From positions 3,330,442 to 3,394,441 of the forward strand of contig CAWIIB010000009.1 of the NCBI GenBank assembly GCA_963836075.1: a stretch of 64,000 bases of DNA. Direction: 5' to 3'. Of the stretch, positions 8,019 through 47,900 are shown piece by piece. This stretch comes from an uncultured Acidobacteriota bacterium (GTDB lineage: Bacteria; Acidobacteriota; JAQAZP01). Below the pieces are notes generated by a model. That model was not told the origin of the DNA. It searched no databases and saw only the letters and a list, made by a program, of their open reading frames with translations. Within the stretch, counting starts at the first letter, position 1; each line of letters opens with the position of its first letter. A program made the position numbers and the translations under genes.

Positions 8019-8049
8019 GTCTCCTCGACTGAAAAGTTATATCCGAAAG

Positions 8050-8181: not shown

Positions 8182-8202
8182 TTCCAAAATGGAGGGCGAG
8201 CC

Positions 8203-10723: not shown

Positions 10724-10825
10724 ACCGGCGATTGACTGCATGTCGGCGGTGACATATCCTTCAGTTGCTGTTTTTCCACTCGATCTACAACGGGATCAGA
10801 TTGTTACGGATCGCGAAGGAGGACC

Positions 10826-12106: not shown

Positions 12107-12113
12107 CCGAACC

Positions 12114-13681: not shown

Positions 13682-13688
13682 ACCGGAG

Positions 13689-14471
13689 ATGGGACAGCAA
13701 CTGGTTTTCGTCAAGCTGGGCGGGTCGCTGATCACCGACAAGACGAAGCCGTACACCGCCAGGCCTGAAGTGATCGCCCGGGCGGCGTCCGAGATTCACC
13801 GGGCGCGGAACAAGGCCGGTCTGGCCCTGCTGGTGGGCCACGGCGGCGGCAGCTTCCCCCATGTCAGCGCCGCAAAGTACCGGATTCACAAGGGAGCCTC
13901 CGATGCCCGGGGCTGGGAGGGTTTTGCCAGGGTGCAGGCCGATGCGGCGCGACTGAACCGCATGGTTGTTTCGGCGCTGCTGGAAGCCGGGGAACCGGCC
14001 ATCTCCGTCCAGCCTTCGGCGGCCTGCCTGGCCCGGGACCGCCGTCTGGAGCGCTGGGATGGCCAGGCGCTGGAGCAGTGCCTGGCCCGGGGCCTGGTGC
14101 CGGTACCTTACGGCGATGTCTGTTTTGACGAGGCCCGGGGCTGCTGCATCCTCTCCACCGAGGAGATCTTCCGCTTTCTCGCTCCGCGGCTCCGACCTGC
14201 GCGGATCATCATGGCCGGCAAGACCGACGGCGTGCTGGACGAGGAGGGGAACACCGTCCCCGAGCTCACCCCCGCGGACCTCGGTCGAATGAAGAGTGCA
14301 CTCTCCGCCTCGGACGGCGTGGCCGACGTCACCGGCGGCATGGTGCACAAGGTGGAGAGGGCCCTGGAGACCGGTGTGGCCACCCTGATCATCAACGGCC
14401 TGCGGCCCGGGGAACTGGAGAAGGCCCTCCTCGGCCGCCCGGTGGCCGGCACGCTGGTCACCCGCGGCTGA
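13689..14471 (+). CDS. Isopentenyl phosphate kinase (amino-acid kinase fold)
   Basis: Internal ATG at 13689, 8 nt after the upstream stop. Has LVFVKLGGSLITDK and GHGGGSFPH motifs, 260 aa. Confidence 0.8.
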   Translation: MGQQLVFVKLGGSLITDKTKPYTARPEVIARAASEIHRARNKAGLALLVGHGGGSFPHVSAAKYRIHKGASDARGWEGFARVQADAARLNRMVVSALLEAGEPAISVQPSAACLARDRRLERWDGQALEQCLARGLVPVPYGDVCFDEARGCCILSTEEIFRFLAPRLRPARIIMAGKTDGVLDEEGNTVPELTPADLGRMKSALSASDGVADVTGGMVHKVERALETGVATLIINGLRPGELEKALLGRPVAGTLVTRG

Positions 14472-14481
14472 CAGCGCAGGA

Positions 14482-15549
14482 TCACTGCGGCCGCAACTCC
14501 TCGATGACCGACGCGTCCACCCAGTAGACGTCCGAGTTTCCGTTGCGCGGCTGGCCGTGACTCTGCAGGAACTCCTTGTAGCTCCGGCCGCCGTCCGTGG
14601 AGTCCTTTTCCGTCCCCCGGTTGGAGGCGAAGAAGAGATACCTGCCGTCGGGGGACAGGCTGGCCGAAACCACCCGGTTCCCCGGGGTGTTGAACTTCTC
14701 ACCCATGTTCAGCGGACCGGTCCAGCTGTCGTCCTCGGCGCGGAACGAGATGTAGTAGTCGGCCAGCCCGATGGCGTCCTCCCGGCCGGCCATGCCGTAG
14801 ATGAGGAAACGCTCGTCCGGATCGATGAAGGCGTTGAACTGGGTGTCTCCGGCGTTCACTTCGGCCGGCAGGGCCACCGCCGCCAGATACGCCCCGTCCA
14901 CCATCCTGGAGCGGAAGATCAGGTTCCGCGTCTTCCCCTCTTCTTCCACATCGCGGGTGAAGTAGATATTTCCCTCCCTGGTGGTGGAGGGGAAGAACTC
15001 CGCCGCCTCGCTGTTCACCGGCGGTCCGAGGTTGTAGGGTTCGCTCCAGCCGTCGGCGGTGCGGTCCATGGCCCAGATGTCCTGGTCGTGCCACCCGGGT
15101 GTCGGTTCGGTGCCGTCTCCGGGCCGGGTGGAGAGGAAGAGAAACCGTGAGCCGTCCGGTGTGATGTGCGGTTCGAGGTCGTAGATCGCCGGGTGGCTGG
15201 AAAAGCCGGCGATCTCCGGCTCGGTCCACCTGCCGTCCACCTGGCGGCTGACCACCAGCGCCACCTGGTTGCGGGCCATCAGGCCGAAGTAGAGCTCCTT
15301 GCCGTCCGGAGTGATGACCACGTCCCGTTCGTAGAGACCGGTGGAGAGGATCCCCGGGGCAAAGAGCTGCGGTTCCAGGCCCGGGGGCTCCTGCCCCAGG
15401 TAGTCCCCCTCCAGAACGGGGAAGGCCGTGGGACAGCATGCGCTGTCCGCGTTGACGGCGTCCTCCGAGGCCGGGGGTGAACCGCAGTGCCATGCTGAAA
15501 GCCCGAGCACCAGGATCAGGGAAACAGTGCGGTAAATCCGTGCATTCAT
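14482..15549 (-). CDS. PD40/TolB-like beta-propeller lipoprotein
   Basis: Signal peptide with a Cys (LGLSAWHCG). Repeated (I)TPDGKELYF / PDGSRFLF / SPDGRYLFF motifs. Confidence 0.6.
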   Translation of the reverse strand: MNARIYRTVSLILVLGLSAWHCGSPPASEDAVNADSACCPTAFPVLEGDYLGQEPPGLEPQLFAPGILSTGLYERDVVITPDGKELYFGLMARNQVALVVSRQVDGRWTEPEIAGFSSHPAIYDLEPHITPDGSRFLFLSTRPGDGTEPTPGWHDQDIWAMDRTADGWSEPYNLGPPVNSEAAEFFPSTTREGNIYFTRDVEEEGKTRNLIFRSRMVDGAYLAAVALPAEVNAGDTQFNAFIDPDERFLIYGMAGREDAIGLADYYISFRAEDDSWTGPLNMGEKFNTPGNRVVSASLSPDGRYLFFASNRGTEKDSTDGGRSYKEFLQSHGQPRNGNSDVYWVDASVIEELRPQ

Positions 15550-15662
15550 GATGACCTCTAAGCGTTGTGGAGATCGTTGCTGATGGACAAACGCGTACGG
15601 CCCCGCGCCGCACGTTTCTTGCTAGCAACTATACAACGGGTTGGCCGGGCGTGCCCTTTTTG

Positions 15663-16562
15663 TCAGCCGATAAAGATGCCGATGGCCATCAGAATCGGCG
15701 TGGCAATCACAATGATCACGTTGCGGCCCAGGAAGGGCACCAGCTCGGGTATGGATGTGGCGTACCTGGCCGCGCCTCGAGCCGTTGGGATGGCGAGGAG
15801 CAGTGTGCCCAGACCCAGCAGGGCGAAGGGTGGAAGTTGCCGGAGGACCACACCGAGGACGATGGAGAGATAGGCCAGGGCGAGGAACGTGATGTAGACC
15901 CGGACCGCGGCCGGGACGCCCCAGGCGATGGGCAGGTGGTGCCGGCCCACTTCACGATCGGCATCTACATCGGGGAACTGGTTGATCAGCAACAGGTTGC
16001 TGACCAGGAAAAAGGGGACCAGCGAGGCGATGAATGAGGGCCAGTTGTAAGTCCCGGTGAGGGCGAAGTGTGTGCCCATCACCATCAGCGGCCCGAAGCC
16101 GAGACCCGGGGCGATGAGGCAGATCAGGGGGCTGCGGGTGATCCAGCGGGTGTAGAGGACGATGACCAGCAGGCCCAGCAGACCGAGGGGAATGATCCCC
16201 CAGCCGCGGAGGATGGTGAAATAGACGCCCACCGATACGGTGAACAAAGCCGAGGCCACCCCGGTGAGCAGGGCCACGTGGGCCTGCCCCGGGTTGCCGG
16301 GCAGGGCGCCGCTGCCGCCGCTGAACGGCGTGCGCTCGGTCTTCATGTCGAGGCCGGTGCGAAAGTCGTCGAACTCGTTCAGGGCGTTTACGCTGATGTG
16401 TGCCGCCACGGCACCGGCGAGGGCCATAATCACCGGCAGCGGTGAGATGGAGGCGCCGCTCCAGACCGCGGTGGCCACGCCCGCCAGCACGCAGGCCGGG
16501 GTGAGGATCAGAAAAGGCAGGCGCATCGGCCCGAACAGGGGGCTGGGAGCGGCGTCGGTCAT
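15663..16562 (-). CDS. UbiA-family (MenA-like) membrane prenyltransferase
   Basis: 299 aa and polytopic. The first Asp-rich motif NEFDDFRTGLD fits N-[DE]-x2-D-x3-G-x-D. Confidence 0.65.
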   Translation of the reverse strand: MTDAAPSPLFGPMRLPFLILTPACVLAGVATAVWSGASISPLPVIMALAGAVAAHISVNALNEFDDFRTGLDMKTERTPFSGGSGALPGNPGQAHVALLTGVASALFTVSVGVYFTILRGWGIIPLGLLGLLVIVLYTRWITRSPLICLIAPGLGFGPLMVMGTHFALTGTYNWPSFIASLVPFFLVSNLLLINQFPDVDADREVGRHHLPIAWGVPAAVRVYITFLALAYLSIVLGVVLRQLPPFALLGLGTLLLAIPTARGAARYATSIPELVPFLGRNVIIVIATPILMAIGIFIG

Positions 16563-34366: not shown

Positions 34367-36127
34367 ATGTCGATCACGGGCAATGACAAACCAGGGAAGA
34401 TCGAGCACATGCTGGCCGACAGTGATCTCCCCTTCGCTCACCGCAAAATGATGCTCAAACAGCTGATCAAGCACAGCAGCGAGGAGACGGATTCCATACT
34501 GGAGTCGATCCTCAACGGTGGTGAGAACAACAAACTGGACAAGACCCTGGCCCGCAAGGTCAAGTCGTACAACGAGAAGCTCAAGGCGCTGGAGGAGGGC
34601 CCGGTGCGGCCGGGCACCTTTCTTGGCTCCCGCCCGCACAGTAGTGGTGCGGTGACCCGTGTGCAGGTGAGGCTGGAGGACGGCACGACGGTGTTTCCGC
34701 TGCTGCCCCGCCCCCGTCTGCTGCGGGAACTGCGGCGGGGGGACTCCGTGGTGCTGGACGGTCAGGCCCAGGCCGTCATCTCCCGTGAACCCGCCGCTGA
34801 GTGGTCGGGGGAGGTGGCGACCTACGAACGGCGGATCGGTCCGGAGCATGTGGAGATTTCCGTCCGCGGGGACGAGCGCCATGTCTTCGACGCCTCCCAC
34901 GGGGTCATCGATCTGCTGAACCGGGAGAGTGTGGAGCCGGGCCGCCGGTTGCTGATCTGCCAGCGGCGGAAGTTCGTCATGGGGGTCGTGCCCGAGGAGG
35001 AGGGGCGGGTCCACTACCGCTATCTCGACCGGATGGCGGTGCCCGATGTGGTGGCGGAGCGGGACCTGGGAGATCCCCCGGCCTACCTCGACGAACTGAT
35101 GAGTCATCTGCGGATGGAGATGACCAGGCCCGATCTGCGCCGCCGCTACGGTCTGCGCCGCTGCGCGATGAAGCTGCTGGCCGGGATCAGCGGTTCGGGC
35201 AAGAGCTACTCGCTGCTGGCCCTGTGGAATGCGATGTACCAGCTGATGGCCGAAGTGACCGGAGTGCAGGTGGAGGATCTGCCGTCCCGGGTGATGCGCT
35301 TTCGGCCGGCCCAGCTGCTCAGCCACTGGTTCGGGGACAGTGACAGGAATATCGACCGCTTTTTCGGTGAGGTGCACCGGCTGGCCGACGAAAAATTTGC
35401 CGGCCCCGGGGGCAAGGTCTATGAACTGCCGGTGCTGGTGATCCTCGAGGAAGTGGATGGGATGAGCCGTGCCCGGGGGGGTGACGACATCTATGACCGG
35501 ATCATGTCCACCCTGCTGGAACTGCTTGACCCCACACGCCAGGCGCTCAGCGACCGCATGATCATCTTGGTGGGCACCACCAACGTGCCGGAGCAGATCG
35601 ATCCGGCCTTCCTGCGCCGGATCGGGGGGACCATCGAAACCTTTGGCCATCTCAATCGGAGGAATTTCAGGGAGGTGCTGCGCAAGCGGCTGCAGCGGAT
35701 ACCCCTGGCTGCCCGGGACGGAATGGGCGATGACGATCTGCTGCAGGGGATGGTCAACGAACTGACCTCCTGGCTTTTCAGTTCCAACGGAGAGGACCAC
35801 GGCCAGGTGGAGATTTCTCTGGTGGGCTCCGCCGAGCCGCTGGTCCACCGCCGCAGGGACTTTCTCACCGCCGGCATGGTGGACCGGGCCGTACAGCAGG
35901 TGGCCGATCTGGCCTGCACGGAAGAGGATGCCGGCAGCGCCAACCCCGGCCTGACCCCGGCGATGCTGAAAAAGGCGCTGGACCGCCAGGTGCGGGCCAT
36001 TGTGGACCTGCTCAGCCCGGGGAATGTGGGCAACTATCTGCAGTTGCCCGATGGGGTGCGGGTCCAGGGCATCAGGGTCATCGAGCGGCCGGTGATCCAT
36101 TCTTTTGAGCTGGTGCGGGCGAGCTGA
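34367..36127 (+). CDS. Classical-clade AAA+ ATPase with a coiled-coil and OB N-domain (PAN/Mpa/ARC-like architecture)
   Basis: Coiled-coil KLDKTLARKVKSYNEKLKALEEGP is followed by VRPGTFLG...VQVRLEDGTTVFPLL...LRRGDSVVLDG (OB-like). A second OB-like segment follows. Walker A is GISGSGKS, Walker B VLVILEEVDG, SRH ILVGTTNVPEQIDPAFLRRIGG. Confidence 0.8.
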   Translation: MSITGNDKPGKIEHMLADSDLPFAHRKMMLKQLIKHSSEETDSILESILNGGENNKLDKTLARKVKSYNEKLKALEEGPVRPGTFLGSRPHSSGAVTRVQVRLEDGTTVFPLLPRPRLLRELRRGDSVVLDGQAQAVISREPAAEWSGEVATYERRIGPEHVEISVRGDERHVFDASHGVIDLLNRESVEPGRRLLICQRRKFVMGVVPEEEGRVHYRYLDRMAVPDVVAERDLGDPPAYLDELMSHLRMEMTRPDLRRRYGLRRCAMKLLAGISGSGKSYSLLALWNAMYQLMAEVTGVQVEDLPSRVMRFRPAQLLSHWFGDSDRNIDRFFGEVHRLADEKFAGPGGKVYELPVLVILEEVDGMSRARGGDDIYDRIMSTLLELLDPTRQALSDRMIILVGTTNVPEQIDPAFLRRIGGTIETFGHLNRRNFREVLRKRLQRIPLAARDGMGDDDLLQGMVNELTSWLFSSNGEDHGQVEISLVGSAEPLVHRRRDFLTAGMVDRAVQQVADLACTEEDAGSANPGLTPAMLKKALDRQVRAIVDLLSPGNVGNYLQLPDGVRVQGIRVIERPVIHSFELVRAS

Positions 36128-36173
36128 TCCGGAATCGCCGTCCGGACGGGGAAAGATCGAGGAGGAGAGGCAG

Positions 36174-36509
36174 ATGGCCGACGAACGGAGGAGACCGAAA
36201 AGAGAGGAGACCGGGCCAGGTCCCGGTGGCCTCGGTGATGTGTTTGCCGGACCCGAAACGGGCGGGGCGGTAACGGTTTGCCATGGACCGTACAGCGAGG
36301 ATCTGCCGGTGGGCAACATGAGTGTGGGTGAGGTCCGGCGCCGGTTCTCGGACCGCCTGGACATCGACCCCCAGAGCCAGGCGGTGATCGACGGCAACGA
36401 GGTGGACGACAGCACCGTGCTGCGCGGCGGCCAACTGCTGGCCTTTATCCGGCAGGCTGGTGAAAAGGGCGGGAGGAGACGGTCCCACGGGGGAGGATCG
36501 CCATGTTGA
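36174..36509 (+). CDS. Second ubiquitin-like (ThiS/MoaD-type beta-grasp) protein with an internal GG followed by an 11-aa tail
   Basis: RBS GGAGGAGAGG. VTVCHGPYSEDLPVGNMSVGEVRRRFSDRLDIDPQSQAVIDGNEVDDSTVLRGGQLLAFIRQAGEKGG-RRRSHGGGSPC. Overlaps the next gene by 7 nt. Confidence 0.6.
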   Translation: MADERRRPKREETGPGPGGLGDVFAGPETGGAVTVCHGPYSEDLPVGNMSVGEVRRRFSDRLDIDPQSQAVIDGNEVDDSTVLRGGQLLAFIRQAGEKGGRRRSHGGGSPC

Positions 36510-37453
36510 GCAAGCTGGCCGCAAGGCGGGCGGAGGCGCGGTCCGCTTCGCGCCGGCAGACGGTGCACCAGGTGACCATCAAGGGTGAGCTGGTCTCCAC
36601 GGCCACCCCGGAGGGGCAGCCGGTCTGCATGAAACTGAAGGACCTGCTGGGGCTGATCTCGACCCACGGGGATCGATCGCTGGAGACCGGAGGCCTGTTG
36701 CCCGACGGGGTCAAGCTGGTCCGGTCCCGGGGGCCGGTGACCGTCTGGACCTACCAGCGGCCACCCCAGGTGCACAACCTGAGGTGGATCGCCGCCGACT
36801 CTCCCGTGCCGTTCGGAAAGGGCAGCACCTACCGCTCGGTGCGTATCGCGCTGCCCTACCTGGTGGTGCTGGCCGTGTTTATCACCGGGAGGAACAACCG
36901 TCTGCAGCTGTCGCAATACAACGAGTGCTTTTTCCGCAACGAACCTCTGAAGAGTGTTGAGGACCAGCTGTTCTACCCGGCACTGCTCAACTGTTCGAAG
37001 TTCAACCCGCAGGAGGGGCACCCGCTTTCCTGGATCTGCACCGCAAATATGGACCTCAGGCGTCTGGGCCGGCTCCCGGACGAGAACGAACGGATGCGGG
37101 GCAGTATGAATGCTCTGCTGCACTGCCTGCTGGAAACCGGTTACAACCATTCCAGCGAACACCACGAGGAGACAAGCTGGTTCACCGAGTCCGCCACGGT
37201 GGACCCGCGGGTCGCCACCGTCGAGAGGTGGGAGCAGGCCACCGCCAAAGACAGTCTTTTCGTCCTTGACGTCCCCTGGCTCAAAACCGGCAGGAGCCTG
37301 GGGCAGGTGATCGAAAGGATATTCGACAATGCCGGCAGTTCCCGCGGACGGCTGGCCACTTCCAATGACCTGATGCGGCTGATGGCCAACAACAGCGAGC
37401 GGCTGCCGGCGAAGGAAGAAGCGCAGGGGGTATTTATCGATGAACTGTTCTGA
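36503..37453 (+). CDS. Candidate prokaryotic E2-like protein (assigned mainly by position in the Ubl-E2-JAB-E1 order)
   Basis: 316 aa and translationally coupled on both sides. Candidate active-site region LFYPALLNCSKFNPQEGHPLSWICTAN. No canonical HPN motif. Confidence 0.4.
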   Translation: MLSKLAARRAEARSASRRQTVHQVTIKGELVSTATPEGQPVCMKLKDLLGLISTHGDRSLETGGLLPDGVKLVRSRGPVTVWTYQRPPQVHNLRWIAADSPVPFGKGSTYRSVRIALPYLVVLAVFITGRNNRLQLSQYNECFFRNEPLKSVEDQLFYPALLNCSKFNPQEGHPLSWICTANMDLRRLGRLPDENERMRGSMNALLHCLLETGYNHSSEHHEETSWFTESATVDPRVATVERWEQATAKDSLFVLDVPWLKTGRSLGQVIERIFDNAGSSRGRLATSNDLMRLMANNSERLPAKEEAQGVFIDELF

Positions 37454-38348
37454 GGACAGACTGCTCACGCCGATCTACCTGCGGACGAGCGAGGAGATGC
37501 ACTGGCCGGAGGACACGGTGTTTTACATGCTCACCGGCAGCGGTCTCTTTCTCTGCCGCAACAACGAGCACTTCCGCAGCTGTGTTCCGGCCCGCGGCTG
37601 GCCCGGGGAACTGCCCGGTCAGGAAAAGTTCCTCGATCTGCACTATCCCCGGCTGCCCCGGCGGCTGCTGGAACGGGCGGTGGGCTTTTTCGAAGCGGTG
37701 GGGCGCAAACACGATGCGGAAGCGGCACTGCTCCTGGCCTGGGACAGCGAGCGCGAGGTTTACCGCCTGGTGATTCCCCGGCAGCGTTGTACCGTGTACC
37801 TCAACTGGCAGGGGGACACCTCGCCCCAGGGCGTGCACTACGACCTTCCGGAACGCGTGCCCGAGACCTGGATCATTGTTGGCGACATCCACAGCCACGT
37901 CGATTTTTCGGCATACTCCTCGGCCACCGACCAGCACGACGAGCACTACCGCACTGGTCTGCACATCGTGGTGGGCCGCATCTACGACGAGCCGCCCCAG
38001 TTTCATGTGGAAGCCACGGTGGACGGTATGCGCTTTCCCGTCCAGCCGGAGGATATTTTCGAGGGCTACGATTCCCGGAGAAGCGATTTCCCCGAGCAGT
38101 GGTTCGACTGGCTGAAGATCGAACTCGGTTCCGCTTTCACATACTCGGACAGCAGCAAATGGAGTTCCGGCACTGGTTCCTCCGGCTGCAGCGGCCATGG
38201 CCACACGGCCTGTTCACCGATGCCGGCCCCCCGGGGCGGTACCACCGGTTATTCGGTCGCTCCGCTGGAAACGTATCGCAGTTCGGGAAACGGCGGGAAA
38301 AAGAAGGGCGGTGGCCGCAACCGTGACGGCCGGGGGAAACGTCGATGA
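37440..38348 (+). CDS. JAB/MPN (JAMM) metalloprotease with a Gly/Lys/Arg-rich tail
   Basis: EAALLLAW... and an exact JAMM spacing, H-S-H-VDFSAYS-S-AT-D. Overlaps the upstream gene by 14 nt and the downstream gene by ATGA. Confidence 0.8.
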   Translation: MNCSEDRLLTPIYLRTSEEMHWPEDTVFYMLTGSGLFLCRNNEHFRSCVPARGWPGELPGQEKFLDLHYPRLPRRLLERAVGFFEAVGRKHDAEAALLLAWDSEREVYRLVIPRQRCTVYLNWQGDTSPQGVHYDLPERVPETWIIVGDIHSHVDFSAYSSATDQHDEHYRTGLHIVVGRIYDEPPQFHVEATVDGMRFPVQPEDIFEGYDSRRSDFPEQWFDWLKIELGSAFTYSDSSKWSSGTGSSGCSGHGHTACSPMPAPRGGTTGYSVAPLETYRSSGNGGKKKGGGRNRDGRGKRR

Positions 38349-39175
38349 GCGGGGTCGGGAGGGAACAGGTGGTTCTGATGCCCGCTCTGGCCGACCACAC
38401 GGCGGTCAAAATCATCGGTCTGGGCGGAGTGGGCGGCATCGTGGCCCGCTACCTGTCCATCTTCCTCGCCTCGCTGGACCGCGACCTGCGGCTGGTGCTC
38501 ATCGACGGCGACGAGTTCGAGCCGTCCAATGCCACACGGATGCTGTTCTCCGATCACGGCAACAAGGCCGCGGTCACTCGCGCCGAACTCCGGGAACGCT
38601 TTGCCGACACGTCCCTCATGCTGACTGCCGTGGAGCAGTATGTGAAGCCGGACAACATTCACCGCCTGATTCAGAATGATGACGTGGTCATCCTGGCCGT
38701 GGACAACCACGCCACGCGAAAGCTGGTCAGCGAGCACTGCCGGAGCCAGTTGAACGACGTGTGCCTGATCTCGGGGGGGAATGACGGCGTGGGCCCCGAC
38801 GGGTCGGGTTCCCGGCGGCGGGGCACATACGGCAACTGCCAGATTTATTTGCGCCGGGGCGGCCGGGATCTATGTCCCCCGATCACCCGGTATCATCCCG
38901 AGATCCGGGAACCGGCGGATCACAGCCCCGCCGAGGAGAACTGCACCGAACTGATCAAGTCGGTGCCGCAGATCCTGTTCGCTAACCTGGCCGCGGCATC
39001 GGCCATCCTCAACGCCTTCTGGCTCCATTGCTGCTCCGCGCTGCACTACAGCGAACTCAGCTTCGACATTGCCGATGGTCTGATGCGGCCCATGCCCCTG
39101 CCGGCCCCTCTCGTCATCGCGAGGAGCCCGAAGGGTGAAGCGGCGCTCTCTTCGGATGTCTTTCCGGTTCAATGA
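38345..39175 (+). CDS. ThiF-family E1-like protein (PRTRC/Bil-type)
   Basis: VKIIGLGGVGGIVARYL...LVLIDGDEFEPSNATRMLF...VILAVDNHATRKL. Confidence 0.8.
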   Translation: MSGVGREQVVLMPALADHTAVKIIGLGGVGGIVARYLSIFLASLDRDLRLVLIDGDEFEPSNATRMLFSDHGNKAAVTRAELRERFADTSLMLTAVEQYVKPDNIHRLIQNDDVVILAVDNHATRKLVSEHCRSQLNDVCLISGGNDGVGPDGSGSRRRGTYGNCQIYLRRGGRDLCPPITRYHPEIREPADHSPAEENCTELIKSVPQILFANLAAASAILNAFWLHCCSALHYSELSFDIADGLMRPMPLPAPLVIARSPKGEAALSSDVFPVQ

Positions 39176-39216
39176 GATTGCTTCGTCGCCGTCTTCGACG
39201 GCTCCTCGCAATGACA
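39176..39216. repeat. REP-like palindromic element ending in the 12-mer CTCGCAATGACA
   Basis: GATTGCTTCGTCGCCGTCTTCGACGGCTCCTCGCAATGACA lies directly after the operon stop. The same 12-mer occurs at 51806-51817 and inverted at 51763-51774, with a partial copy at 39272-39282. Confidence 0.6.
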
Positions 39217-39294
39217 GCGAGAGAACGAATGTTTCTTCCGCTGACTTCCCGTGGCCCCCGAGGGGCGGGGACTCGCAATGAGCTGCGCAGGGTG

Positions 39295-40059
39295 TCAGCC
39301 GTCGAGGAGGATACTTGAGCAGGTGAGCCCCGATTCGGCCTTGAGCAGCTCGGAGATGTCCACCGTCTTCACCTGGAAACCTGCCGCGCGGACTGCGGAG
39401 ATGGTCCGCCCGAACTCCCGGTGGAGGCAGACAAAGCGGCCGGCCCGGAGGGCGTTGGCCGCCTCGGCTTCGTCGTCATCCACTGGAATGACGGTGAAAC
39501 CGGCGAAGGGGCCGGGGTCGAAAAGGCCCTGGCGGGCCAGCAGGGTCTGGTCGTCCAGAGCGGAGACCGCCGACTTGAGGTGCAGGCAGCCTTTCATGGT
39601 CACCGGGACCACCGTGTAGCCGTGGGGCGACAGCAGGCGGGACAACTGGTCGATCCCGTCCTGGTTGGTGCGCGCGGAGAGGCCGACATAGAGGGTCCGG
39701 CCCACACGGAGCACGTCGCCGCCTTCCAGGGTGCCCGGCTCCACGATCCGTTCCAGCGGTCGGTAACCGGCCAGCACCGGCTCAATACCGGCCACCTCAC
39801 CGCGCCGGGACAGGACGCCCGGCCGGGCAAGCACGGCCAGTTCATCCACCACCACTGCCGTGTCCTCGATGAACGTGCAGTCGGGGTGCGCAATGTTGAC
39901 ATCGGTTTCCAGCACCTGGTACCCGCAATCCTCGAGCATCCGGCGGTAGCCGGCATGCTGGGCCCGTGCCAGTTCGAGGTTGATCGGCTCCCGTCGGCGG
40001 AAGCTCAGCTCGCAGCGGTTGATCCGGGGTGAGACCACGTGGGTCAGGGCAATATTCAT
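39295..40059 (-). CDS. Dimethylarginine dimethylaminohydrolase/amidinotransferase-family protein
   Basis: 254 aa with the DDAH-like pattern (FIEDTAVVVD, EGGDVLRVG, C-terminal GLTCSSIL with a catalytic Cys). Confidence 0.7.
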   Translation of the reverse strand: MNIALTHVVSPRINRCELSFRRREPINLELARAQHAGYRRMLEDCGYQVLETDVNIAHPDCTFIEDTAVVVDELAVLARPGVLSRRGEVAGIEPVLAGYRPLERIVEPGTLEGGDVLRVGRTLYVGLSARTNQDGIDQLSRLLSPHGYTVVPVTMKGCLHLKSAVSALDDQTLLARQGLFDPGPFAGFTVIPVDDDEAEAANALRAGRFVCLHREFGRTISAVRAAGFQVKTVDISELLKAESGLTCSSILLDG

Positions 40060-41966
40060 GGGGTATCTCCGGAACCTTCGCCGGCCTCCCGTTTCAATTC
40101 CAGCTCCTGCCAGCGGTCGTAGACCGCAGCCAGTTCCGTCTCCAGCTCAGCCAGCCGGGCGGTGTCCCGGGCAATCTCTCCGGCCGGGGAGCGGTAGTAG
40201 TCCTGCTCCTCCATCCGGGTAAAGAGCCCCTGCTGCTCCCGCTCCAGCTTCTCGATCCGATCGGGCAGGGCGTCCAGCTCCCGCTGGTCCTTGTAGCCCA
40301 GCTTGCCCGGCTTTGTCTTGCGTGGCGGGCGGGGGTGTGCGGCTTTTTTGGCCGCGGCGGCGGGTGCCGCGGCGGCGGGTGGCCGCTGGCGCAGCCAGTC
40401 GTCATACCCGCCCACGTATTCGGTCACCCGGCCCTGGCCTTCAAAGACCATGGTGCTGGTCACCACGTTGTTCAGAAACGTCCGGTCGTGGCTCACCAGC
40501 AGCAGTGTGCCGCTGTACTCCATGAGCAGCTCCTCCAGCAGTTCGAGGGTCTCCAGGTCGAGGTCATTGGTCGGCTCGTCCAGCACCAGTACGTTGGAGG
40601 GACGGGCCAGGAGCCGGGCCAGGAGCAGACGGCTCCGTTCGCCGCCGGAGAGGGCATTCACCGGAGTGTTGGCCCGTTCGGGAGAGAAGAGAAAGCGTTG
40701 CAGGTAGCCCATCACCTGGTGCTGCCGGCCGCCGAGGGTGAATACATCGGCGCCACCGGCGATATTGTCCTTCACCGAGCGGTTTTCTTCCAACTGCTCC
40801 CGCAACTGGTCGAACCGGGACACTTCGAGATTCACCCCGTGCCGGACATGGCCCTGATCCGGGGGCAGCAGGCCCAGCAGCAGGCCGAGCAGGGTGGTTT
40901 TGCCCGAGCCGTTGGGCCCGATCAGCCCCACCCGGTCACCGCGCATCACGAGGGTGGAAAAATCGTGCACCACCGGATTGCCGTCCCAGGCGTAGGAGAT
41001 TCCCCGGGCCTCGAAGACCAGCTTACCGGTGCGCTGCGCCTCTTCCACCAGCATATCCACCGTACCGGTCTGTTCCCGGCGGGCTTCCCGCTGAGCGCGC
41101 ATCGTCTCCAGGGCGCGGACCCGCCCCTCGTCCCGTGTCCGGCGGGCCTTTATGCCCTTGCGGATCCACTGTTCCTCTCTGGCCAGGCGCCGGTCGAACT
41201 CGGCGTTACGGCCCTCTTCGGCCTCCAGATCCTCGGCCCGGCGTTTGAGGAAGGTACTGTAATCGCAGTTCCAGTCGTGGATTGTCCCCCGGTCCAGTTC
41301 CACCACCCGGGTGGCCAGCCGGCTGAGAAAGGCGCGGTCGTGGCTGACGAAGAGCAGCGCGGATGTCGAATCGGCCAGGAACTGCTCCAGCCAGGTGATG
41401 GTGGCCAGGTCGAGGTGGTTGGTGGGCTCGTCCAGCAGCAGCAGGTCCGGTTCGCTCACCAGGGCCCGGGCCAGCAGCGCCCTGCGGGTCAGACCGGCGG
41501 AGAGGCTGGAGCAGGGGGCGTCGGGGTCGAGGCTCATTCTGGAGATCACCCGGTCCGCCTTTTGCCGGACCTGCCAGCCGTCTTCGCTGTCCAGTTGCTG
41601 TTGCACCTCGGCCAGGCGGTCCATGGCTCCGCCGCCCGACTCCAGTTCGCTGCTCAAGCGGCGATACTCGGCGAGCAGTTCGCCCGTCGGTCCGAGGCCG
41701 GTGGTGACCAGGTCGTGGAGCGTTCCTTCGAGGCTCAGTGGCACGTCCTGGGCCAACAGGGCCGTGGTCAGGCCCTGGCGGCGGGCCACCGCACCGCCAT
41801 CGGGCTTCAACTGGCCGTCAATGAGCCTCATCAGGCTGGTTTTTCCGGCACCGTTGCGGCCCAGCAGGCAGACCCGTTCCCCCTCGCTGATCCGCAGGTT
41901 GGCTCCCTCGAGCAGCCGCGGACCGCCAAAGGCGAGATCCACGTTCTGGAGACTGGTCAGCCACAT
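40056..41966 (-). CDS. ABC-F ATPase (Uup-like) with a C-terminal coiled coil
   Basis: Two ABC cassettes (GRNGAGKTS, GPNGSGKTT; LSGGE signatures) and no TM domain. Confidence 0.85.
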   Translation of the reverse strand: MWLTSLQNVDLAFGGPRLLEGANLRISEGERVCLLGRNGAGKTSLMRLIDGQLKPDGGAVARRQGLTTALLAQDVPLSLEGTLHDLVTTGLGPTGELLAEYRRLSSELESGGGAMDRLAEVQQQLDSEDGWQVRQKADRVISRMSLDPDAPCSSLSAGLTRRALLARALVSEPDLLLLDEPTNHLDLATITWLEQFLADSTSALLFVSHDRAFLSRLATRVVELDRGTIHDWNCDYSTFLKRRAEDLEAEEGRNAEFDRRLAREEQWIRKGIKARRTRDEGRVRALETMRAQREARREQTGTVDMLVEEAQRTGKLVFEARGISYAWDGNPVVHDFSTLVMRGDRVGLIGPNGSGKTTLLGLLLGLLPPDQGHVRHGVNLEVSRFDQLREQLEENRSVKDNIAGGADVFTLGGRQHQVMGYLQRFLFSPERANTPVNALSGGERSRLLLARLLARPSNVLVLDEPTNDLDLETLELLEELLMEYSGTLLLVSHDRTFLNNVVTSTMVFEGQGRVTEYVGGYDDWLRQRPPAAAAPAAAAKKAAHPRPPRKTKPGKLGYKDQRELDALPDRIEKLEREQQGLFTRMEEQDYYRSPAGEIARDTARLAELETELAAVYDRWQELELKREAGEGSGDTP

Positions 41967-41993
41967 GGGTCTGGTTGAACGCTCGGTATCGGG

Positions 41994-43679
<1,686 letters not shown>

Positions 43680-44958: not shown

Positions 44959-47900
44959 TCAATAGTCGGATTCGGGCAGGCCCATTCCGGAGCGGTCGGG
45001 CCATGCGGGAACCGGGGCCGCCTTGAAAGCGCCGGTCTTCGCTTCCTCGATCATCTGTTCGATGGCCCGGTCCAGCTGCGGGTCACCGCCGTCCACCATC
45101 AGGGCCGGGTCATCCAGCACCTCGATGTCTGGATCCACGCCGTGGCCCTCGATGCCCCAGGTGCCGTCAATGTCGTAGAAGGCGAAGGACGGGGTGGTCA
45201 CGCCGGCGCCGTCCAGCAGCGGCGGGCCGCCGCCGATGCCCACCAGACCGCCCCAGGTGCGGGTGCCGATCAGCTTGCCCAGTTTGTTGTGCTTGAAGAG
45301 GTAGGGAAAGTGGTCCCCGCCCGATCCGGCCAGGCCGTTGATCAGCATGCACTTGGGACCGTGGTGCGCGTCCTGGGGCCAGACCACCTGGCCCTTGAGG
45401 TCACGGACCGACCAGTAGTTGGTGATCGGCCGGTTGAGCAGTTCGATGAAGCGGGTGGGCACCTGGCCGCCGCCGTTCCAGCGTTCGTCGATGATCAACG
45501 CTTCCTTCTCGATCTGGCCCACGAACTGGCGCACCAGTTCACTCTGGCCCTGGATGCCGGTATTGGGCACGTAGATATAGCCCACCTTGCCGCCCGATTT
45601 GCGGTCCACATACTGCCGGTTGGCTTCCACCCAGGCCCGGTAGCGCAGGTCGCCGTCGTTGCCCAGCAGCTCAACCAGCACCTGGCGGTCATTTTCACCG
45701 CTATTCGGCTCTTCGCTCACCGTCAGACGCACGGTCTGCCCGGCCTTGCCCACAAAGGAGGCCCAGGGGTCGCGATTCGTGTCCACCGGAACGCCGTTAA
45801 CCGCCAGCAGGTAGTCACCGACCTTGACGTCCACTCCGGGCTGGCTCAGCGGGCCGCGGGCATCCACGTCCCAGGGGCCGCCCTCGAGAATCAGCGAGAT
45901 GCGGTAAGCGCCGTCGTTCAACTCGAAGTCACAGCCCAGCATGCCGGTGGGCAGTTGGGGCGGGTTCTCGTTGTCACCGCCGAAGTAGTAGGTGTGGCCA
46001 ACGTTCAGCTCGGCGATCAGTTCGCGGAGAATGAAGCCCACGTCCTCGCGGGAGGTGCACTCCTCGATGAGCGGGGCATACTGCTCACGGACGGCTTCCC
46101 AGTTCAGGCCGTGCATGTTGGGGTCGTAGAAGAAATCGCGCTCGCGGCGCCAGACTTCGTTGAAGATCTGCCGCCACTCCTCGCGGGGGTTCACCGTGGC
46201 CAGCATGCCGCCGGTGGGAACCATCTCCTCCAGCTTCTGGTCCGCAGCGGCGTTGATGATCGCCATCGCCCCGCCCTCGTTGACCACCAGCAGCTTCTTG
46301 CCGTCGGCGGAAATGTCCACCAGGTTGACCCCGCCGGCCACCGTTTTGACCTTCTCCTTCTCGTCGTCGAAGTCGAAGAGGTGGATGGTGGGTGGCCCCT
46401 GGGTCCCGGGAGCCGGGGCCTTGGCAAAGATCAGCTTGTTTCCGTCGTTGACACAGAGGCCGAAGAAGGCGCCCTTGTCCATGGGCAGGGCGATGGCCCG
46501 CTGTTCGAACCCCTCGAGGTCTATTTTCAAGGGGTCTTCTTCCTCTTCCTCAGCTTCGCCATCCTTGTCCTTGTCTTCGCCCTCGTCTCCGTCCTTGGCC
46601 TCTCCGTCCTCCTTCTCATCGCCGTTTTCGTCCTTCTCCTCCTCGATCTCCTCGTCGTCGCTCTTCGGGGCCAGCGGGTTTTCCACGTCGGCGTTCAGCG
46701 GCACGGCGTAGAGCCGGTCGGTGGCGGTGTAGACCCAGGTGGTGTCCACGTCGGAGTAAATCGGACTGCTGAAGTCACGATTGCTGGCGAAAAAGAGAAA
46801 CTTGCCTTCACGGTCGAAAGTGGGCCAGGTGATGCCGAACATCGTGTCGGTCACCTGGTGCTTTTTACCGGCGGCCATCTCGTAGAGGAAGATCTGGTTC
46901 GGACCGCGAAGGCTGGTGCCGCGGGCCCAGGCCAGCCAGTTGGAGTCGTGGGACCAGCTGAGGCTGGTTGCTCCCGGGCCCAGCTGTTCCTCGATCACCT
47001 TCGCTTCCTTTGATTCAACATTGTAGAGATAGAGTTTGCCGCTTTTTTCCCAGAAGGCGATCCACTCGCTGTCCGGGGACCAGTTGGCCGCGAAGTAGTA
47101 GGAGGGCGGCAGGTCGGTGACCCTTTCCGCTTCAGCCGGAGCTGTCGGCGGCACTGATGTAGAGCTGGTATTCACCGGTCCCGTCGGAGAACCAGGCGAT
47201 CCACTTCTTGTCCGGGCTGAACGTCGGATAGCGCTCGGCGGCACCGCTGGTGCGGGTGAAGTTCACCGGCGAGCCGTTTTTGGCCGGCAAAGTCCAGACG
47301 TCGCCCCGGGCGCCCACGGCAACCCGTTTGCCGGTGGGGGAGAGGGAGCGGCTGAACAGCGATTCGGAGGCGTCCTTTATCTGGGGACGGATCTGGGGAC
47401 GGGCGCCGGGGATGGTGACCTGCACCGCAGTGCTGCCGCCACCGGCCAGGTCGAGCAGGCGCAGCTCGGCGCCCAGCTGGTAGACAATCTGGTTCGGGCC
47501 GATGGAAGGCCATTTCACGTCATAGGAGGCGTGGTCGGTCACCTGGGTGCGTGTGCCGTTCTTCGTATCGTAGGACCAGATGTTCAGCCGGTGTTCCGGG
47601 CCGTTGTCCGAGAGGTAGTAGAGGGTATCGCCGTGCCACATGGGGTAGGTGTCGGTACCTTCCCAGTCGGTGATCTTTTTGGAAGTGTTCTTCTTCAGGT
47701 TAATCAGCCAGATATCGGTGGCCATCCCGCCGCGGTAGCGTTTCCAGTTGCGGAAGTCCCGGGAGTGGGGGGTGTAGGCCAGCCACTTGCCGTCGTCGCT
47801 CACCGCGCCGTTGGCGCCGTAGGGCACCGGCATCTTTTCCGGCAGGCCGCCGTCCGCCGCCACCGTGAACAGCTCCCTGGTGCGGGGGTTGAGGCCGATA

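What the first reader, a model, noticed from the sequence alone, without database searches (positions are those of the whole stretch)
34367..36127. PAN/Mpa-like AAA+ ATPase (coiled-coil, OB, AAA) inside a Ubl operon, with no HbYX tail and no proteasome genes nearby
**Seen.**
- An N-terminal heptad-like helix ends in EEGP, followed by VRPGTFLG...LRRGDSVVLDG. This has the same logic as the PAN/Mpa coiled-coil to OB junction.
- A second OB-like block is present.
- Walker A is GISGSGKS and Walker B VLVILEEVDG, with Glu in place of the usual Asp.
- The SRH carries an RR pair.
- The C-terminus is ...FELVRAS, so there is no hydrophobic-Tyr-X docking motif.

**Established.** In Mpa the coiled coil binds the Pup tag and the OB ring forms the substrate entry.

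**Inference.** This ATPase may recognise one of the operon's Ubls and unfold or extract tagged targets. It may work without a dedicated peptidase (segregase-like) or with a protease encoded elsewhere.
Basis: partly seen in the sequence, partly recalled or inferred. Interest (0 to 1): 0.8.

Follow-up and report, generated by a model that had tools for sequence, protein, structure and literature searches.

The report
Mpa-like unfoldase wired to bacterial ubiquitin-like operon
This gene encodes a ring-forming, ATP-driven protein-unfolding motor that most resembles the mycobacterial proteasome ATPase. In every relative examined it lies inside, or is fused to, a ubiquitin-like tagging gene set with no proteasome, which points to an undescribed bacterial and phage "tag and unfold" system.

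Summary
Window 34367-36127 (+) encodes a 586-aa AAA+ protein. It has N-terminal helices ending in an invariant G/A-P-x-R junction, then two OB domains, then a classical AAA module. Its closest known relative by HMM, PDB sequence search and fold search is Mpa/ARC, but it is not a member of that family:
- It scores 87 bits against the 505-bit family cut-off.
- Its Walker B is EE across the family.
- It has no GQYL or HbYX tail.
- No Pup, PafA or 20S genes were found nearby.

The gene is the seventh of a tightly packed 11-gene operon (29291-39175): RING, E1, E2-like, unknown, small Gly-ended protein, JAB-motif protein, AAA, second small Gly-ended protein, possible E2-like, JAB, second E1. The same genes recur in the same order, at 24-70% identity, in MAGs of at least five phyla, with unrelated flanks. 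A minimal AAA/Ubl/E2-like/JAB/E1 core occurs in phage-like contigs. In four representative proteins the second Ubl is fused to the N-terminus of the ATPase.

Most accessory proteins match no Pfam, NCBIfam or PADLOC model, and I found no paper describing the system. The best reading is a Ubl-directed unfoldase or segregase that works without a docked peptidase. The mechanism is inferred, not shown.

The parts
27343..28611 (-). Divergently transcribed 422-aa protein with an HTH-like N-terminus; candidate regulator.
   Evidence: No Pfam hit. tblastn finds orthologues (24-40% identity) beside the cassette in L023, L025, L016, L007 and L009, but not in the other loci. The HTH reading comes from inspecting the sequence only.
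28612..29290 (.). AT-rich intergenic region with divergent promoter-like sites.
   Evidence: GC is 0.535 at 28-30 kb against about 0.65 elsewhere. Four of the five sigma-70-like matches in 28400-39500 fall in this region (consensus matches only).
29291..29932 (+). RING-like zinc-finger protein (candidate E3), gene 1 of the operon.
   Evidence: Prok-RING_1 at E 1.4e-5, which is below the Pfam cut-off. Nine of 14 orthologues hit Prok-RING_1, best E 6e-7. It is conserved at the first position of the cassette.
29944..31191 (+). E1a, a ThiF-family adenylating enzyme of 415 aa.
   Evidence: Pfam ThiF at E 5e-24. PADLOC matches to the E1 part of Cap2-type E1-E2 models.
31268..31945 (+). E2-like protein (225 aa) with FHPNI...VLCLG and an invariant Cys147.
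   Evidence: Identified by motif only. The alignment of 17 orthologues keeps P129 and C147. There is no Pfam or PDB sequence hit.
31950..32765 (+). Conserved unknown protein (271 aa, Trp-rich).
   Evidence: Present in the cassette in the 21 loci whose contigs reach this position, except the divergent L026. No family hit.
32788..33081 (+). Small protein 'Ubl-A' (97 aa) ending ...THLG.
   Evidence: The C-terminal HLG is conserved in 18 sequences, and in 14 of them it is followed directly by the stop codon. No Pfam or PDB hit. The Ubl fold is inferred.
33187..34362 (+). 391-aa protein with a JAB-like motif: E...HGH...(Cys-rich insert)...S..D.
   Evidence: Invariant residues are E222, H293, H295, C307, C310, C316, S324 and D327. 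hhalign against the operon's JAB family aligns the HxH motif, but only at E 0.076. The assignment is tentative. The start follows the public gene call.
34367..36127 (+). The finding: a 586-aa Mpa-like AAA+ ATPase.
34367..34603 (+). N-terminal helical region (residues 1-77) with a short heptad helix (56-77), plus the invariant G78-P79 junction.
   Evidence: Model secondary structure; column conservation.
34604..34987 (+). Tandem OB-like domains (residues 80-140 and 149-207).
   Evidence: Model strands. PF16450 weak hit. It is precomputed on about a third of the homologues. N-terminal halves of 3 of 4 members hit only pup_AAA, at profile positions 16-165.
35183..35206 (+). Walker A, GISGSGKS.
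35324..35344 (+). Pore loop 1, H-W-F-G-D-S-D (aromatic-hydrophobic-Gly).
   Evidence: W321 is nearly invariant and G323 invariant. [WYF][LFIV]G was found in 158 of 200 members with a strict pattern.
35432..35461 (+). Walker B, VLVILEEVDG, with Glu in place of the usual Asp.
   Evidence: E361 and E362 are invariant in 27 sequences. EE occurs in at least 193 of 200 members.
35573..35629 (+). Sensor-1 (TTN, N406) and the second region of homology with R417 and R418.
   Evidence: These columns are invariant.
36174..36509 (+). Small protein 'Ubl-B' (111 aa): a low-complexity N-tail, a core of about 70 aa, and an invariant GEKG followed by a variable tail.
   Evidence: Alignments. It is fused N-terminally to the ATPase in P0117, P0261, P0323 and P0329, and to the unk316-like protein in L026. 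Similarity to ThiS is weak but in register (E 0.023). No Pfam or PDB hit.
36503..37453 (+). 316-aa protein with an invariant Cys179 (WIC); a possible E2-like (UBC/RWD-fold) protein.
37440..38348 (+). JAB/MPN+ metallopeptidase (302 aa; HSH...S..D).
   Evidence: Prok-JAB at E 6e-8. PRTRC_A at E 4e-12, below its cut-off. The family profile hits the MPN structure 2kcq.
38345..39175 (+). E1b, a short ThiF-family adenylating enzyme of 276 aa; last gene of the operon.
   Evidence: Pfam ThiF at E 6e-16. It is the best-conserved accessory gene, at 41-70% identity.

Best explanation
The gene encodes an active, ring-forming AAA+ protein translocase. It belongs to a distinct family whose nearest relatives are the Mpa/ARC proteasomal ATPases.

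It is the ATP-driven component of a self-contained, horizontally mobile Ubl-conjugation cassette. The proposed mechanism follows. All four steps are inferred.
1. The GEKG-ended small protein (Ubl-B) is trimmed by the JAB peptidase and adenylated by E1b. It is then passed to the Cys-bearing unk316 protein and attached to target proteins.
2. The N-terminal helices and coiled coil of the ATPase hexamer capture the tag.
3. The tagged protein, or the tag's own disordered N-tail, is threaded through the double OB ring. The W-[F/L]-G pore loops pull it and unfold or extract it.
4. A JAB protein may strip the tag at the ring entrance, as Rpn11 does on the Rpt ring.

No peptidase is docked. The outcome would be unfolding or segregation, or hand-over to general proteases.

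The RING, E1a, E2 and Ubl-A half of the cassette adds a second tagging arm, possibly for target selection or regulation.

The patchy distribution, the unrelated flanks and the phage-borne core suggest a role in conflict between bacteria and mobile elements.
For: **Shown: architecture and nearest relatives.**
- NCBIfam pup_AAA is the top hit over residues 62-559 (E 8e-25).
- The best PDB sequence hits are Mpa.
- The top 30 Foldseek hits are all Mpa, over about 520 columns, ahead of the Rpt subunits.
- The N- and C-terminal halves each prefer pup_AAA on their own.
- In an exhaustive profile search, the first non-family proteins are ARC/Mpa-like. They score 280-335 bits on pup_AAA and have a DE Walker B.

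**Shown: motor residues.** Walker A, EE Walker B, the aromatic-hydrophobic-Gly pore loop, sensor-1 Asn and the RR pair are all conserved.

**Shown: genetic linkage.**
- The same 11 genes occur in the same order in most of the 20 genome loci and in 3 further loci. These span Planctomycetota, Verrucomicrobiota, Gemmatimonadota, Thermodesulfobacteriota and Eiseniibacteriota, among others.
- A subfamily with only 27% ATPase identity keeps the layout.
- The five-gene core occurs alone in L001 and L028.
- Four representative proteins have Ubl-B fused to the ATPase N-terminus with GEKG retained.

**Shown: no protease partner in view.**
- No docking tail.
- No self-compartmentalising protease was found in the scanned part of the window. 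None was found in the annotated flanks of five other loci either.

**Shown: mobility.**
- The flanks are unrelated between genomes, and an integrase sits next to the cassette in L023.
- L001 carries phage RecT, ExoVIII and HNH genes.
- One IMG/VR contig carries E1b next to the ATPase.
Against: - No binding, ATPase or unfolding data exist, and no multimer or complex model could be run.
- The Ubl fold of both small proteins is unproven. They have no Pfam or PDB sequence hits, and similarity to ThiS is only E 0.023.
- The JAB assignment of unk396 rests on a motif.
- The heptad helix is only about 20 residues long, much shorter than Mpa's Pup-binding coiled coil.
- The Ubl-ATPase fusions could simply reflect co-translation of a precursor that is then cleaved. 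They need not mean that the tag is recognised by the ATPase.
- An EE Walker B is unusual, and its effect on hydrolysis is unknown.
- Only 64 kb of this genome was available, so a partner protease encoded elsewhere cannot be excluded.
- No PADLOC defence model fits the cassette. The defence role is circumstantial.
Confidence: 0.5

Rival explanations
1. It is a protease activator after all. The hexamer would deliver Ubl-tagged proteins to a compartmentalised peptidase encoded elsewhere in the genome, such as a 20S proteasome, ClpP or HslV, or another protease such as the Tricorn-like one. Docking would use a mode other than HbYX or GQYL.
For: - Its nearest relatives (Mpa/ARC, PAN, Rpt) all feed a 20S particle.
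- A Tricorn-type S41 peptidase lies 9 kb downstream in the window.
- Only 64 kb of the genome could be inspected.
Against: - No penultimate-Tyr tail: 1 of 200 members.
- The C-termini vary in length and sequence.
- No peptidase other than JAB is conserved in or beside the cassette in any locus.
- The flanks differ between genomes, so the Tricorn neighbour is not a conserved association.
- The cassette moves between phyla as a unit. That argues that it is self-sufficient.
Confidence: 0.15
2. It is a remodelling or recycling factor for the conjugation machinery itself, not for tagged targets. It might unfold or release Ubl precursors, strip E1/E2~Ubl dead-end complexes, or switch the system on and off. 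TRIP13 does this for HORMA proteins in CBASS, and NSF or MoxR-type ATPases do it for their partners.
For: - The Ubl-ATPase fusions place the tag in cis on the motor.
- Genes overlap or abut in the operon, which suggests a stoichiometric complex.
- There is a weak PADLOC similarity to TRIP13 models, which is generic to AAA domains.
- A subset of loci adds a second, Clp-lid-like P-loop protein right after the ATPase.
Against: - The OB ring, the conserved aromatic pore loop and the Mpa-like layout are the hallmarks of processive substrate threading. They are not typical of a dedicated switch.
- GEKG is retained in the fusions. That implies the tag is cut off and used elsewhere.
Confidence: 0.2
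3. It is a catalytically dead scaffold. The Walker B Asp-to-Glu change would abolish hydrolysis, so the ring would only bind ATP and organise the other proteins.
For: The canonical hhhhDE motif is replaced by hhhhEE.
Against: - The change is fixed in at least 193 of 200 members, including subfamilies below 30% identity.
- The catalytic Glu, sensor-1 Asn, both Arg residues, the Walker A Lys and the pore loop are all under strong conservation. Pseudo-ATPases usually lose these residues.
- From general chemistry, Glu can still hold the Mg-water shell.
Confidence: 0.05

Closest known systems
Mpa/ARC, the actinobacterial proteasome-associated ATPase of the Pup-proteasome system (TIGR03689)
   Same: - It shares the same order of parts: a coiled-coil helix, a Pro junction, two OB domains, a classical AAA module and an extended C-terminal region.
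- It is the best hit by HMM, PDB sequence search and fold search.
- It is the nearest neighbour in an exhaustive profile search.
- Both serve a small-protein tagging pathway.
   Different: - The window protein scores 87 bits against a 505-bit cut-off and shares 18-22% identity.
- The coiled coil is short.
- Walker B is EE rather than DE.
- There is no GQYL tail.
- No Pup, PafA, Dop or PrcAB genes are nearby.
- The partner tags are Gly-ended, E1-activated small proteins. Pup is disordered and is ligated by a glutamine-synthetase-like enzyme.
The 19S base and lid logic of the 26S proteasome (Rpt1-6 OB/AAA ring with the JAB deubiquitinase Rpn11), and archaeal PAN or Cdc48 with SAMP/Urm1-type tags
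   Same: - An OB-ring AAA unfoldase is encoded together with JAB metallopeptidase(s), E1, E2-like and RING proteins, and Gly-ended tags.
- Rpt subunits are the next-best structural matches.
   Different: - There are two OB domains rather than one.
- There is no HbYX motif.
- No 20S core was found.
- The ring is homomeric.
- The host is bacterial or phage.
- Whether a JAB protein sits on the ring is unknown.
Bacterial ubiquitination-like operons: Bil, Bub (6E) and type II CBASS Cap2/Cap3 (PMC10557695, PMC11601596, 10.1101/2024.11.21.623966)
   Same: - All combine E1 (ThiF), E2-like, JAB and Ubl gene sets.
- All have a sporadic, island-like distribution.
- Ubl precursors carry C-terminal tails, and Ubl-E2 fusions occur (L026, as in BubAB).
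   Different: - In the papers I read, none of these systems is described with an AAA+ unfoldase, a second E1/Ubl set or a RING in the same operon.
- The Bub marker DUF6527 is absent.
- PADLOC recognises only the generic E1 domain.
- The Ubl, E2-like and unknown proteins hit no Pfam model.
The PRTRC (ParB-related, ThiF-related) cassette and the JAB/E1/Ubl/E2-like neighbourhoods of mobile elements (Iyer et al. 2006, PMC1779556). Also the Ubl 'tri-ligase' with RING in FtsH-ternary conflict systems (Kaur et al. 2020, PMC7159879)
   Same: - The operon's JAB gives its best NCBIfam hit to PRTRC protein A.
- The core module sits on phage-like DNA.
- Kaur et al. describe complete E1, E2, RING and JAB sets beside another AAA+ protein (FtsH). 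They also mention a related Ubl system coupled to Pup conjugation in Planctomycetes and Thermofonsia.
   Different: - The PRTRC_A score (46 bits) is below its cut-off of 102.
- The cassette has no ParB, vWA-MoxR, FtsH, caspase or PafA-like genes.
- The ATPase here is Mpa-like, not FtsH or MoxR.
- I could not read Burroughs et al. 2011, so an earlier mention there cannot be excluded.

Membership tests
Mpa/ARC proteasome ATPase (NCBIfam TIGR03689 pup_AAA) | Sequence reaches the curated family score of 504.75 bits. | tested here: not met
   The window protein scores 87.4 bits. Four other family members score 54-78 bits on their C-terminal halves.
Mpa/ARC proteasome ATPase | Architecture: N-terminal coiled coil, tandem OB domains, one AAA module. 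| tested here: met
   AF2 model. The top 30 Foldseek hits are Mpa, over about 520 columns. The HMM alignment spans profile positions 16-487 of 512. The coiled coil is short.
Mpa/ARC proteasome ATPase | C-terminal GQYL (penultimate Tyr) motif that docks into the 20S alpha ring. | tested here: not met
   The protein ends FELVRAS. A penultimate Tyr occurs in 1 of 200 full-length relatives, and the tails vary.
Mpa/ARC proteasome ATPase | Genomic association with Pup, PafA/Dop and the 20S subunits PrcA/PrcB. | tested here: not met
   None of these Pfam families was hit among the operon products and 38 of 40 other called window ORFs. None was hit in the annotated neighbours of six loci. The rest of the genome was not available.
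Mpa/ARC proteasome ATPase | The coiled coil binds the Pup tag. | not testable with these tools
   No complex prediction or binding assay was available.
PAN/Rpt proteasome-activating nucleotidases | A single OB domain, an HbYX tail, and a sequence score at or above the family cut-off (500 bits). | tested here: not met
   The model has two OB domains. There is no HbYX tail. TIGR01242 scores 23.9 bits.
Classical-clade AAA+ protein translocases | Walker A GxxGxGK[ST]; Walker B acidic pair; aromatic-hydrophobic-Gly pore loop 1; sensor-1 Asn; Arg finger(s) in the second region of homology. | tested here: met
   All are present and conserved. The only deviation is Walker B EE instead of DE. Pfam AAA at E 5e-14.
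Classical-clade AAA+ protein translocases | Forms a hexameric ring with ATP-dependent unfolding activity. | not testable with these tools
   Only a monomer model could be built. No biochemistry was possible.
Bacterial ubiquitination-like operons (E1/E2/Ubl/JAB; the Bil, Bub and CBASS-II kind) | An E1 adenylating enzyme and a JAB/MPN+ peptidase are encoded together. | tested here: met
   Two ThiF proteins. Prok-JAB and an MPN profile hit. Both are conserved in all loci with enough sequence.
Bacterial ubiquitination-like operons | A beta-grasp Ubl with a C-terminal Gly that is exposed or exposable. | tested here: inconclusive
   The invariant C-terminal ...HLG and ...GEKG(+tail) are shown. The fold has no Pfam or PDB sequence support. 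ThiS similarity is E 0.023.
Bacterial ubiquitination-like operons | An E2 (UBC-fold) protein with a catalytic Cys, or Ser in Bub. | tested here: inconclusive
Bil, Bub or type II CBASS specifically | The marker proteins match the curated models (Cap2/Cap3, DUF6527/BubE, and so on). | tested here: not met
   PADLOC gives only partial E1-domain matches, and nothing for the other nine proteins scanned apart from weak generic AAA matches for the ATPase. There is no DUF6527 and no Prok-E2 or Prok_Ub Pfam hit in 108 orthologues.

The most novel reading that the evidence does not exclude
Bacteria and their phages carry a compact, mobile, proteasome-less counterpart of the ubiquitin/19S machinery. A beta-grasp tag is activated by its own E1 and passed through an E2-like protein, with a RING E3 arm. 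A dedicated Mpa-type OB/AAA ring reads the tag and unfolds the tagged protein, while a JAB peptidase removes the tag. This would be the first bacterial case of a ubiquitin-type (not Pup-type) tag coupled to a proteasomal-type unfoldase. It would also be a living model for how Ub tagging and AAA unfoldases became linked before the 26S proteasome.
Probability: 0.35. Interest if true: 0.9.

Novelty: new variant of a known kind. Interest (0 to 1): 0.75.

Why it matters
- **A missing combination.** Tag-and-unfold systems are known in three forms: Ub with Rpt or Cdc48 in eukaryotes, SAMP/Urm1 with PAN or Cdc48 in archaea, and Pup with Mpa in actinobacteria. Bacterial E1/E2/JAB operons (Bil, Bub, CBASS-II) have only recently been shown to conjugate proteins, and none of those is known to include an unfoldase. 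This cassette joins the two. An Mpa-like motor is genetically locked to E1-activated, Gly-ended tags, a RING and JAB peptidases, across at least five phyla and in phage-like DNA.
- **A new effector logic.** If the inferred mechanism holds, tagged proteins are mechanically unfolded rather than merely modified. That would be a new effector logic for bacterial Ubl systems.
- **A tractable model.** The homomeric ring and 5-11 genes would make the system easy to study. It could show how an AAA ring reads a ubiquitin-like tag and how that coupling arose.
- **Unannotated families.** Six accessory protein families here have no family model at all.

Tried and rejected
- **Sequence searches for the accessory proteins.** Profile searches of the PDB for the E2-like, unk316, unk396 and both small-protein families gave nothing credible.
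- **Profile-profile tests.**
  - unk396 against the JAB family gave E 0.076, aligned at HxH only.
  - unk316 against the E2-like family showed no relation.
  - Ubl-A against Ubl-B, Ubl-A against ubiquitin and Ubl-B against SAMP1 showed no relation.
  - Ubl-B against ThiS gave E 0.023.
- **An apparent unk396-ATPase fusion in L009.** This was an artefact of my ORF-extension script. Translation shows a stop codon between the two genes.
- **Known defence or phage families.** PADLOC and PHROGs have no model for the cassette.
- **Literature.**
  - Seven completed full-text searches and reading of the Bub, Bil, Iyer 2006 and Kaur 2020 papers found no description of this ATPase or cassette.
  - Burroughs et al. 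2011 and Burroughs 2012 are not held.
- **Organism identity.** The exact protein is on a 3.5-Mb NCBI contig, but no name or accession was returned.
- **Formal phylogeny.** A tree against PAN, Rpt, Cdc48 and FtsH was not built, because reference sequences could not be fetched. HMM score ranking and the exhaustive-search neighbour test were used instead.
- **Tricorn-like peptidase.** I considered it as a partner and rejected it, because it is not conserved next to the cassette elsewhere.
Full report
**What is at the coordinates**

Window 34367-36127 (+) is an intact ORF of 586 codons.
- The ATG at 34367 lies 4 nt after the stop of the upstream gene and follows a GGGAGGA ribosome-binding-like sequence. 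A public gene call on an identical contig uses the same start.
  - ...KLKALEEGP at residues 71-79
  - VRPGTFLG at 80-87
  - LRRGDSVVLDG at 122-132
  - Walker A GISGSGKS at 273-280
  - Walker B VLVILEEVDG at 356-365
  - AFLRRIGG at 414-421
  - the C-terminus FELVRAS
- Pfam finds an AAA domain (E 5e-14) and a weak proteasomal-ATPase OB domain at 160-218.

**Fold and nearest relatives**

An AlphaFold2 model built on 27 homologues has mean pLDDT 79.6. It shows:
- four N-terminal helices (8-77), the last of which (56-77) runs into G78-P79;
- two beta-barrel blocks (80-140 and 149-207);
- an AAA alpha/beta domain and a lid with beta insertions.

Across the family, positions 61/65/68/72/75 are hydrophobic in a heptad pattern, and P79 and R81 are invariant. 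There is a coiled-coil-like helix at a Pro junction, as in PAN and Mpa, but it is only 2-3 heptads long.

Several independent comparisons name Mpa/ARC as the closest known family:
- NCBIfam TIGR03689 (pup_AAA) matches residues 62-559 to profile positions 16-487 of 512 at E 8e-25. CDC48, PAN, CdvC and FtsH trail far behind.
- phmmer against PDB sequences ranks Mpa first, then Cdc48.
- Foldseek against the PDB gives Mpa chains for the top 30 hits (E 3e-26 to 2e-19, about 520 aligned columns), then Rpt subunits at about 1e-15.
- When four family members are split, the N-terminal halves of three hit only pup_AAA, in its coiled-coil and OB part. All C-terminal halves score 54-78 bits on pup_AAA against 30-43 on CDC48.
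- In a profile search of 1.84 billion representative proteins, only 312 reach E 1e-30. The first proteins beyond the family have a canonical DE Walker B and score 280-335 bits on pup_AAA.

The family is therefore a rare, divergent offshoot next to ARC/Mpa.

It is not a member. The window protein scores 87 bits against a 505-bit cut-off. It lacks the GQYL tail, and no Pup, PafA or 20S genes accompany it.

**Is the motor likely to work?**

Among 200 full-length relatives:
- Walker B is EE in at least 193, and DE appears only in the ARC-like outliers.
- The Walker A Lys, the catalytic Glu362, the sensor-1 Asn406 and R417/R418 are invariant or nearly so.
- Pore loop 1 is aromatic-hydrophobic-Gly (W-L/F-G, or Y-L-G).

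A substitution fixed across subfamilies below 30% identity, together with an intact catalytic and pore apparatus, points to an active translocase with a family-specific Walker B. It does not look like a dead enzyme. This is inference; no assay was possible.

Only 1 of 200 members has a penultimate Tyr, and the tails differ in length and sequence. The canonical way of docking onto a 20S particle is therefore absent.

**The surroundings: one conserved cassette**

The gene is the seventh of eleven tightly spaced or overlapping genes on the + strand (29291-39175). An AT-rich divergent promoter region precedes them, and no convincing internal terminators were found.

| Order | Gene | Basis |
|---|---|---|
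| 1 | RING-like zinc finger | Prok-RING_1, weak here but hit by 9 of 14 orthologues |
| 2 | E1a | ThiF, E 5e-24 |
| 3 | 225-aa E2-like protein | FHPNI...LCLG motif with an invariant Cys |
| 4 | 271-aa unknown | no family hit |
| 5 | Ubl-A, 97 aa | ends ...THLG |
| 6 | 391-aa protein | invariant E...HGH...Cys-rich insert...S..D, resembling a JAB site |
| 7 | the ATPase | see above |
| 8 | Ubl-B, 111 aa | low-complexity N-tail and invariant GEKG followed by 0-15 variable residues |
| 9 | 316-aa protein | invariant Cys179 |
| 10 | JAB peptidase | |
| 11 | E1b | ThiF |

A degenerate-pattern scan of one genome per species returned 20 loci. These came from Planctomycetota, Verrucomicrobiota, Gemmatimonadota, Thermodesulfobacteriota, Eiseniibacteriota and other MAGs.
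- tblastn with the eleven window proteins finds the same genes in the same order in nearly all of them, at 24-64% identity.
- Three further loci reached through exact-protein look-ups show the same order, at up to 70% identity. Their flanks are unrelated, and one has an integrase beside the cassette.
- A far-diverged subfamily (27% ATPase identity) keeps the layout, with Ubl-B fused to the 316-aa-type protein.
- All 25 loci with enough downstream sequence, counting the window, carry Ubl-B next to the ATPase, one gene away from it, or fused to it.

**A smaller core, and fusions**

- L001 and L028 carry only the ATPase, Ubl-B, the 316-aa-type protein, JAB and E1b.
- L001 also carries two extra paralogues of the 316-aa-type protein. 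It lies among phage-type HNH, RecT-like and exonuclease VIII genes.
- One IMG/VR viral contig has E1b next to the ATPase at its end.
- In four representative proteins (P0117, P0261, P0323, P0329) Ubl-B is fused in frame to the N-terminus of the ATPase, and the GEKG motif is retained.

These fusions, and the fixed adjacency, are the strongest evidence that the ATPase and this tag act together. They do not show how.

**What the accessory proteins are, and how sure this is**

- E1a, E1b, the JAB and, as a family, the RING are supported by curated models.
- The rest are not. Scanning 108 orthologues of seven accessory families against Pfam returned only Prok-RING_1 consistently. NCBIfam, PADLOC and PHROGs gave nothing for them.
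- The two small proteins have conserved C-terminal Gly and sit among E1 and JAB genes. Ubl-B aligns weakly but in register with ThiS (E 0.023). Their beta-grasp fold is not demonstrated.

**No protease partner in view**

- Pfam was run on the 11 operon products and 38 of the 40 other ORFs called by third-position GC bias. No proteasome, ClpP, HslV or Lon was found. The two unscanned ORFs are ABC-F-like by eye, and the 47.2-48.7 kb stretch has no called ORF.
- A Tricorn-type S41 peptidase lies at 44959-47244 (-) and an M28 peptidase at 55010-57958 (+). Neither is conserved beside the cassette elsewhere.
- The annotated neighbours in six other loci include no compartmentalised peptidase.

**Most likely mechanism**

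Shown:
- an Mpa-like OB/AAA architecture with intact motor residues;
- obligatory genetic linkage to an E1, JAB and small-protein set;
- recurrent Ubl-B-ATPase fusions;
- no docking tail;
- a mobile, patchy distribution that includes phage-like DNA.

Inferred:
- Ubl-B is trimmed after GEKG by a JAB, adenylated by E1b, passed to the Cys-bearing 316-aa protein and attached to targets.
- The ATPase hexamer recognises the tag with its N-terminal helices and threads the conjugate through the OB ring and pore. The tag's disordered N-tail may start the threading, as Pup's does in Mpa.
- A JAB protein may remove the tag at the ring entrance, as Rpn11 does.
- The result is unfolding or extraction without a dedicated peptidase.
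- The RING, E1a, E2 and Ubl-A arm adds a second tagging step.
- A role in conflict with phages or other mobile elements is plausible but circumstantial.

I put about 0.5 on this overall picture. Rivals are:
- a protease activator with a partner elsewhere (0.15);
- a remodeller of the conjugation machinery itself (0.2);
- a dead scaffold (0.05).

**Comparison with what is known, and novelty**

- The protein works like Mpa, PAN or Rpt but fails the membership tests for Mpa/ARC and PAN.
- The cassette is of the same kind as the Bil, Bub and CBASS-II ubiquitination-like operons and the JAB/E1/Ubl neighbourhoods of Iyer et al. 2006. None of those, as described in the papers I could read, contains an unfoldase or this gene set.
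- Kaur et al. 2020 describe a RING, E1, E2 and JAB 'tri-ligase' beside FtsH and MoxR ATPases. They mention in one sentence a related Ubl system coupled to Pup conjugation in Planctomycetes and Thermofonsia. That is the nearest published idea I found, but no PafA-like gene is present here.
- Burroughs et al. 2011 could not be read, so an earlier passing mention cannot be excluded.

I rate it a new variant of a known kind: a tag-dependent AAA unfoldase system in which a ubiquitin-type conjugation set replaces Pup and no proteasome is attached.

Noticed in passing
window 5966-16562: A cluster of genes resembles the archaeal-type (anhydromevalonate phosphate) mevalonate pathway in a bacterium. The genes are a GHMP kinase, an FMN-dependent dehydrogenase (type 2 IDI-like), a UbiD-family decarboxylase, aconitase X (AcnX, E 1e-156), an amino-acid-kinase-family protein (isopentenyl phosphate kinase-like) and a UbiA prenyltransferase. 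The pathway reading rests on my own knowledge of those families.
   Followed up: no
window 44959-47244 (-), and the uncalled stretch up to about 48690: A Tricorn-type protease (Tricorn C1, PDZ and Peptidase_S41 domains) lies 9 kb downstream of the operon. The ORF is shorter than typical Tricorn proteases, and 1.4 kb upstream of it has no called ORF. It is not conserved next to the cassette in other genomes.
   Followed up: partly
L007 11740-12939, L019 11734-12990; also L009 and L021 between the ATPase and Ubl-B: Four loci carry an extra gene of about 400 aa inserted right after the ATPase. By eye it has a degenerate P-loop (GRAGCG / GVAGAGK) and a Clp-type lid-like C-terminal part. It may be a second, possibly inactive, AAA+-like subunit.
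   Followed up: no
window 27343-28611 (-): A divergently transcribed 422-aa protein with an HTH-like N-terminus and no Pfam hit. Orthologues sit beside the cassette in five other loci, once downstream instead of upstream. It is a candidate dedicated regulator or sensor.
   Followed up: partly
L001 8613-9910 and 11962-12801: The phage-like contig carries three paralogues of the 316-aa-type protein around its Ubl-ATPase fusion gene. It also has RecT-like, exonuclease VIII and HNH genes.
   Followed up: partly
L026 6918-8354: In a distant subfamily, Ubl-B and the 316-aa-type protein are fused into one 478-aa protein. This recalls the Ubl-E2 fusion BubAB.
   Followed up: partly
L005 4065-4350: One Verrucomicrobia locus lacks the 391-aa JAB-motif gene between Ubl-A and the ATPase. 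That gene is therefore dispensable in at least one lineage.
   Followed up: no
window 40056-43679 (-): Two ABC-F-type (EttA/Uup-like) ATPase genes lie in tandem just downstream of the operon. They were identified from their sequences by eye and were not scanned.
   Followed up: no
window 28001-30000: GC drops to 0.535 against about 0.65 in the rest of the window. The dip is centred on the intergenic region upstream of the cassette, which is consistent with a promoter region and/or a horizontally acquired boundary.
   Followed up: partly
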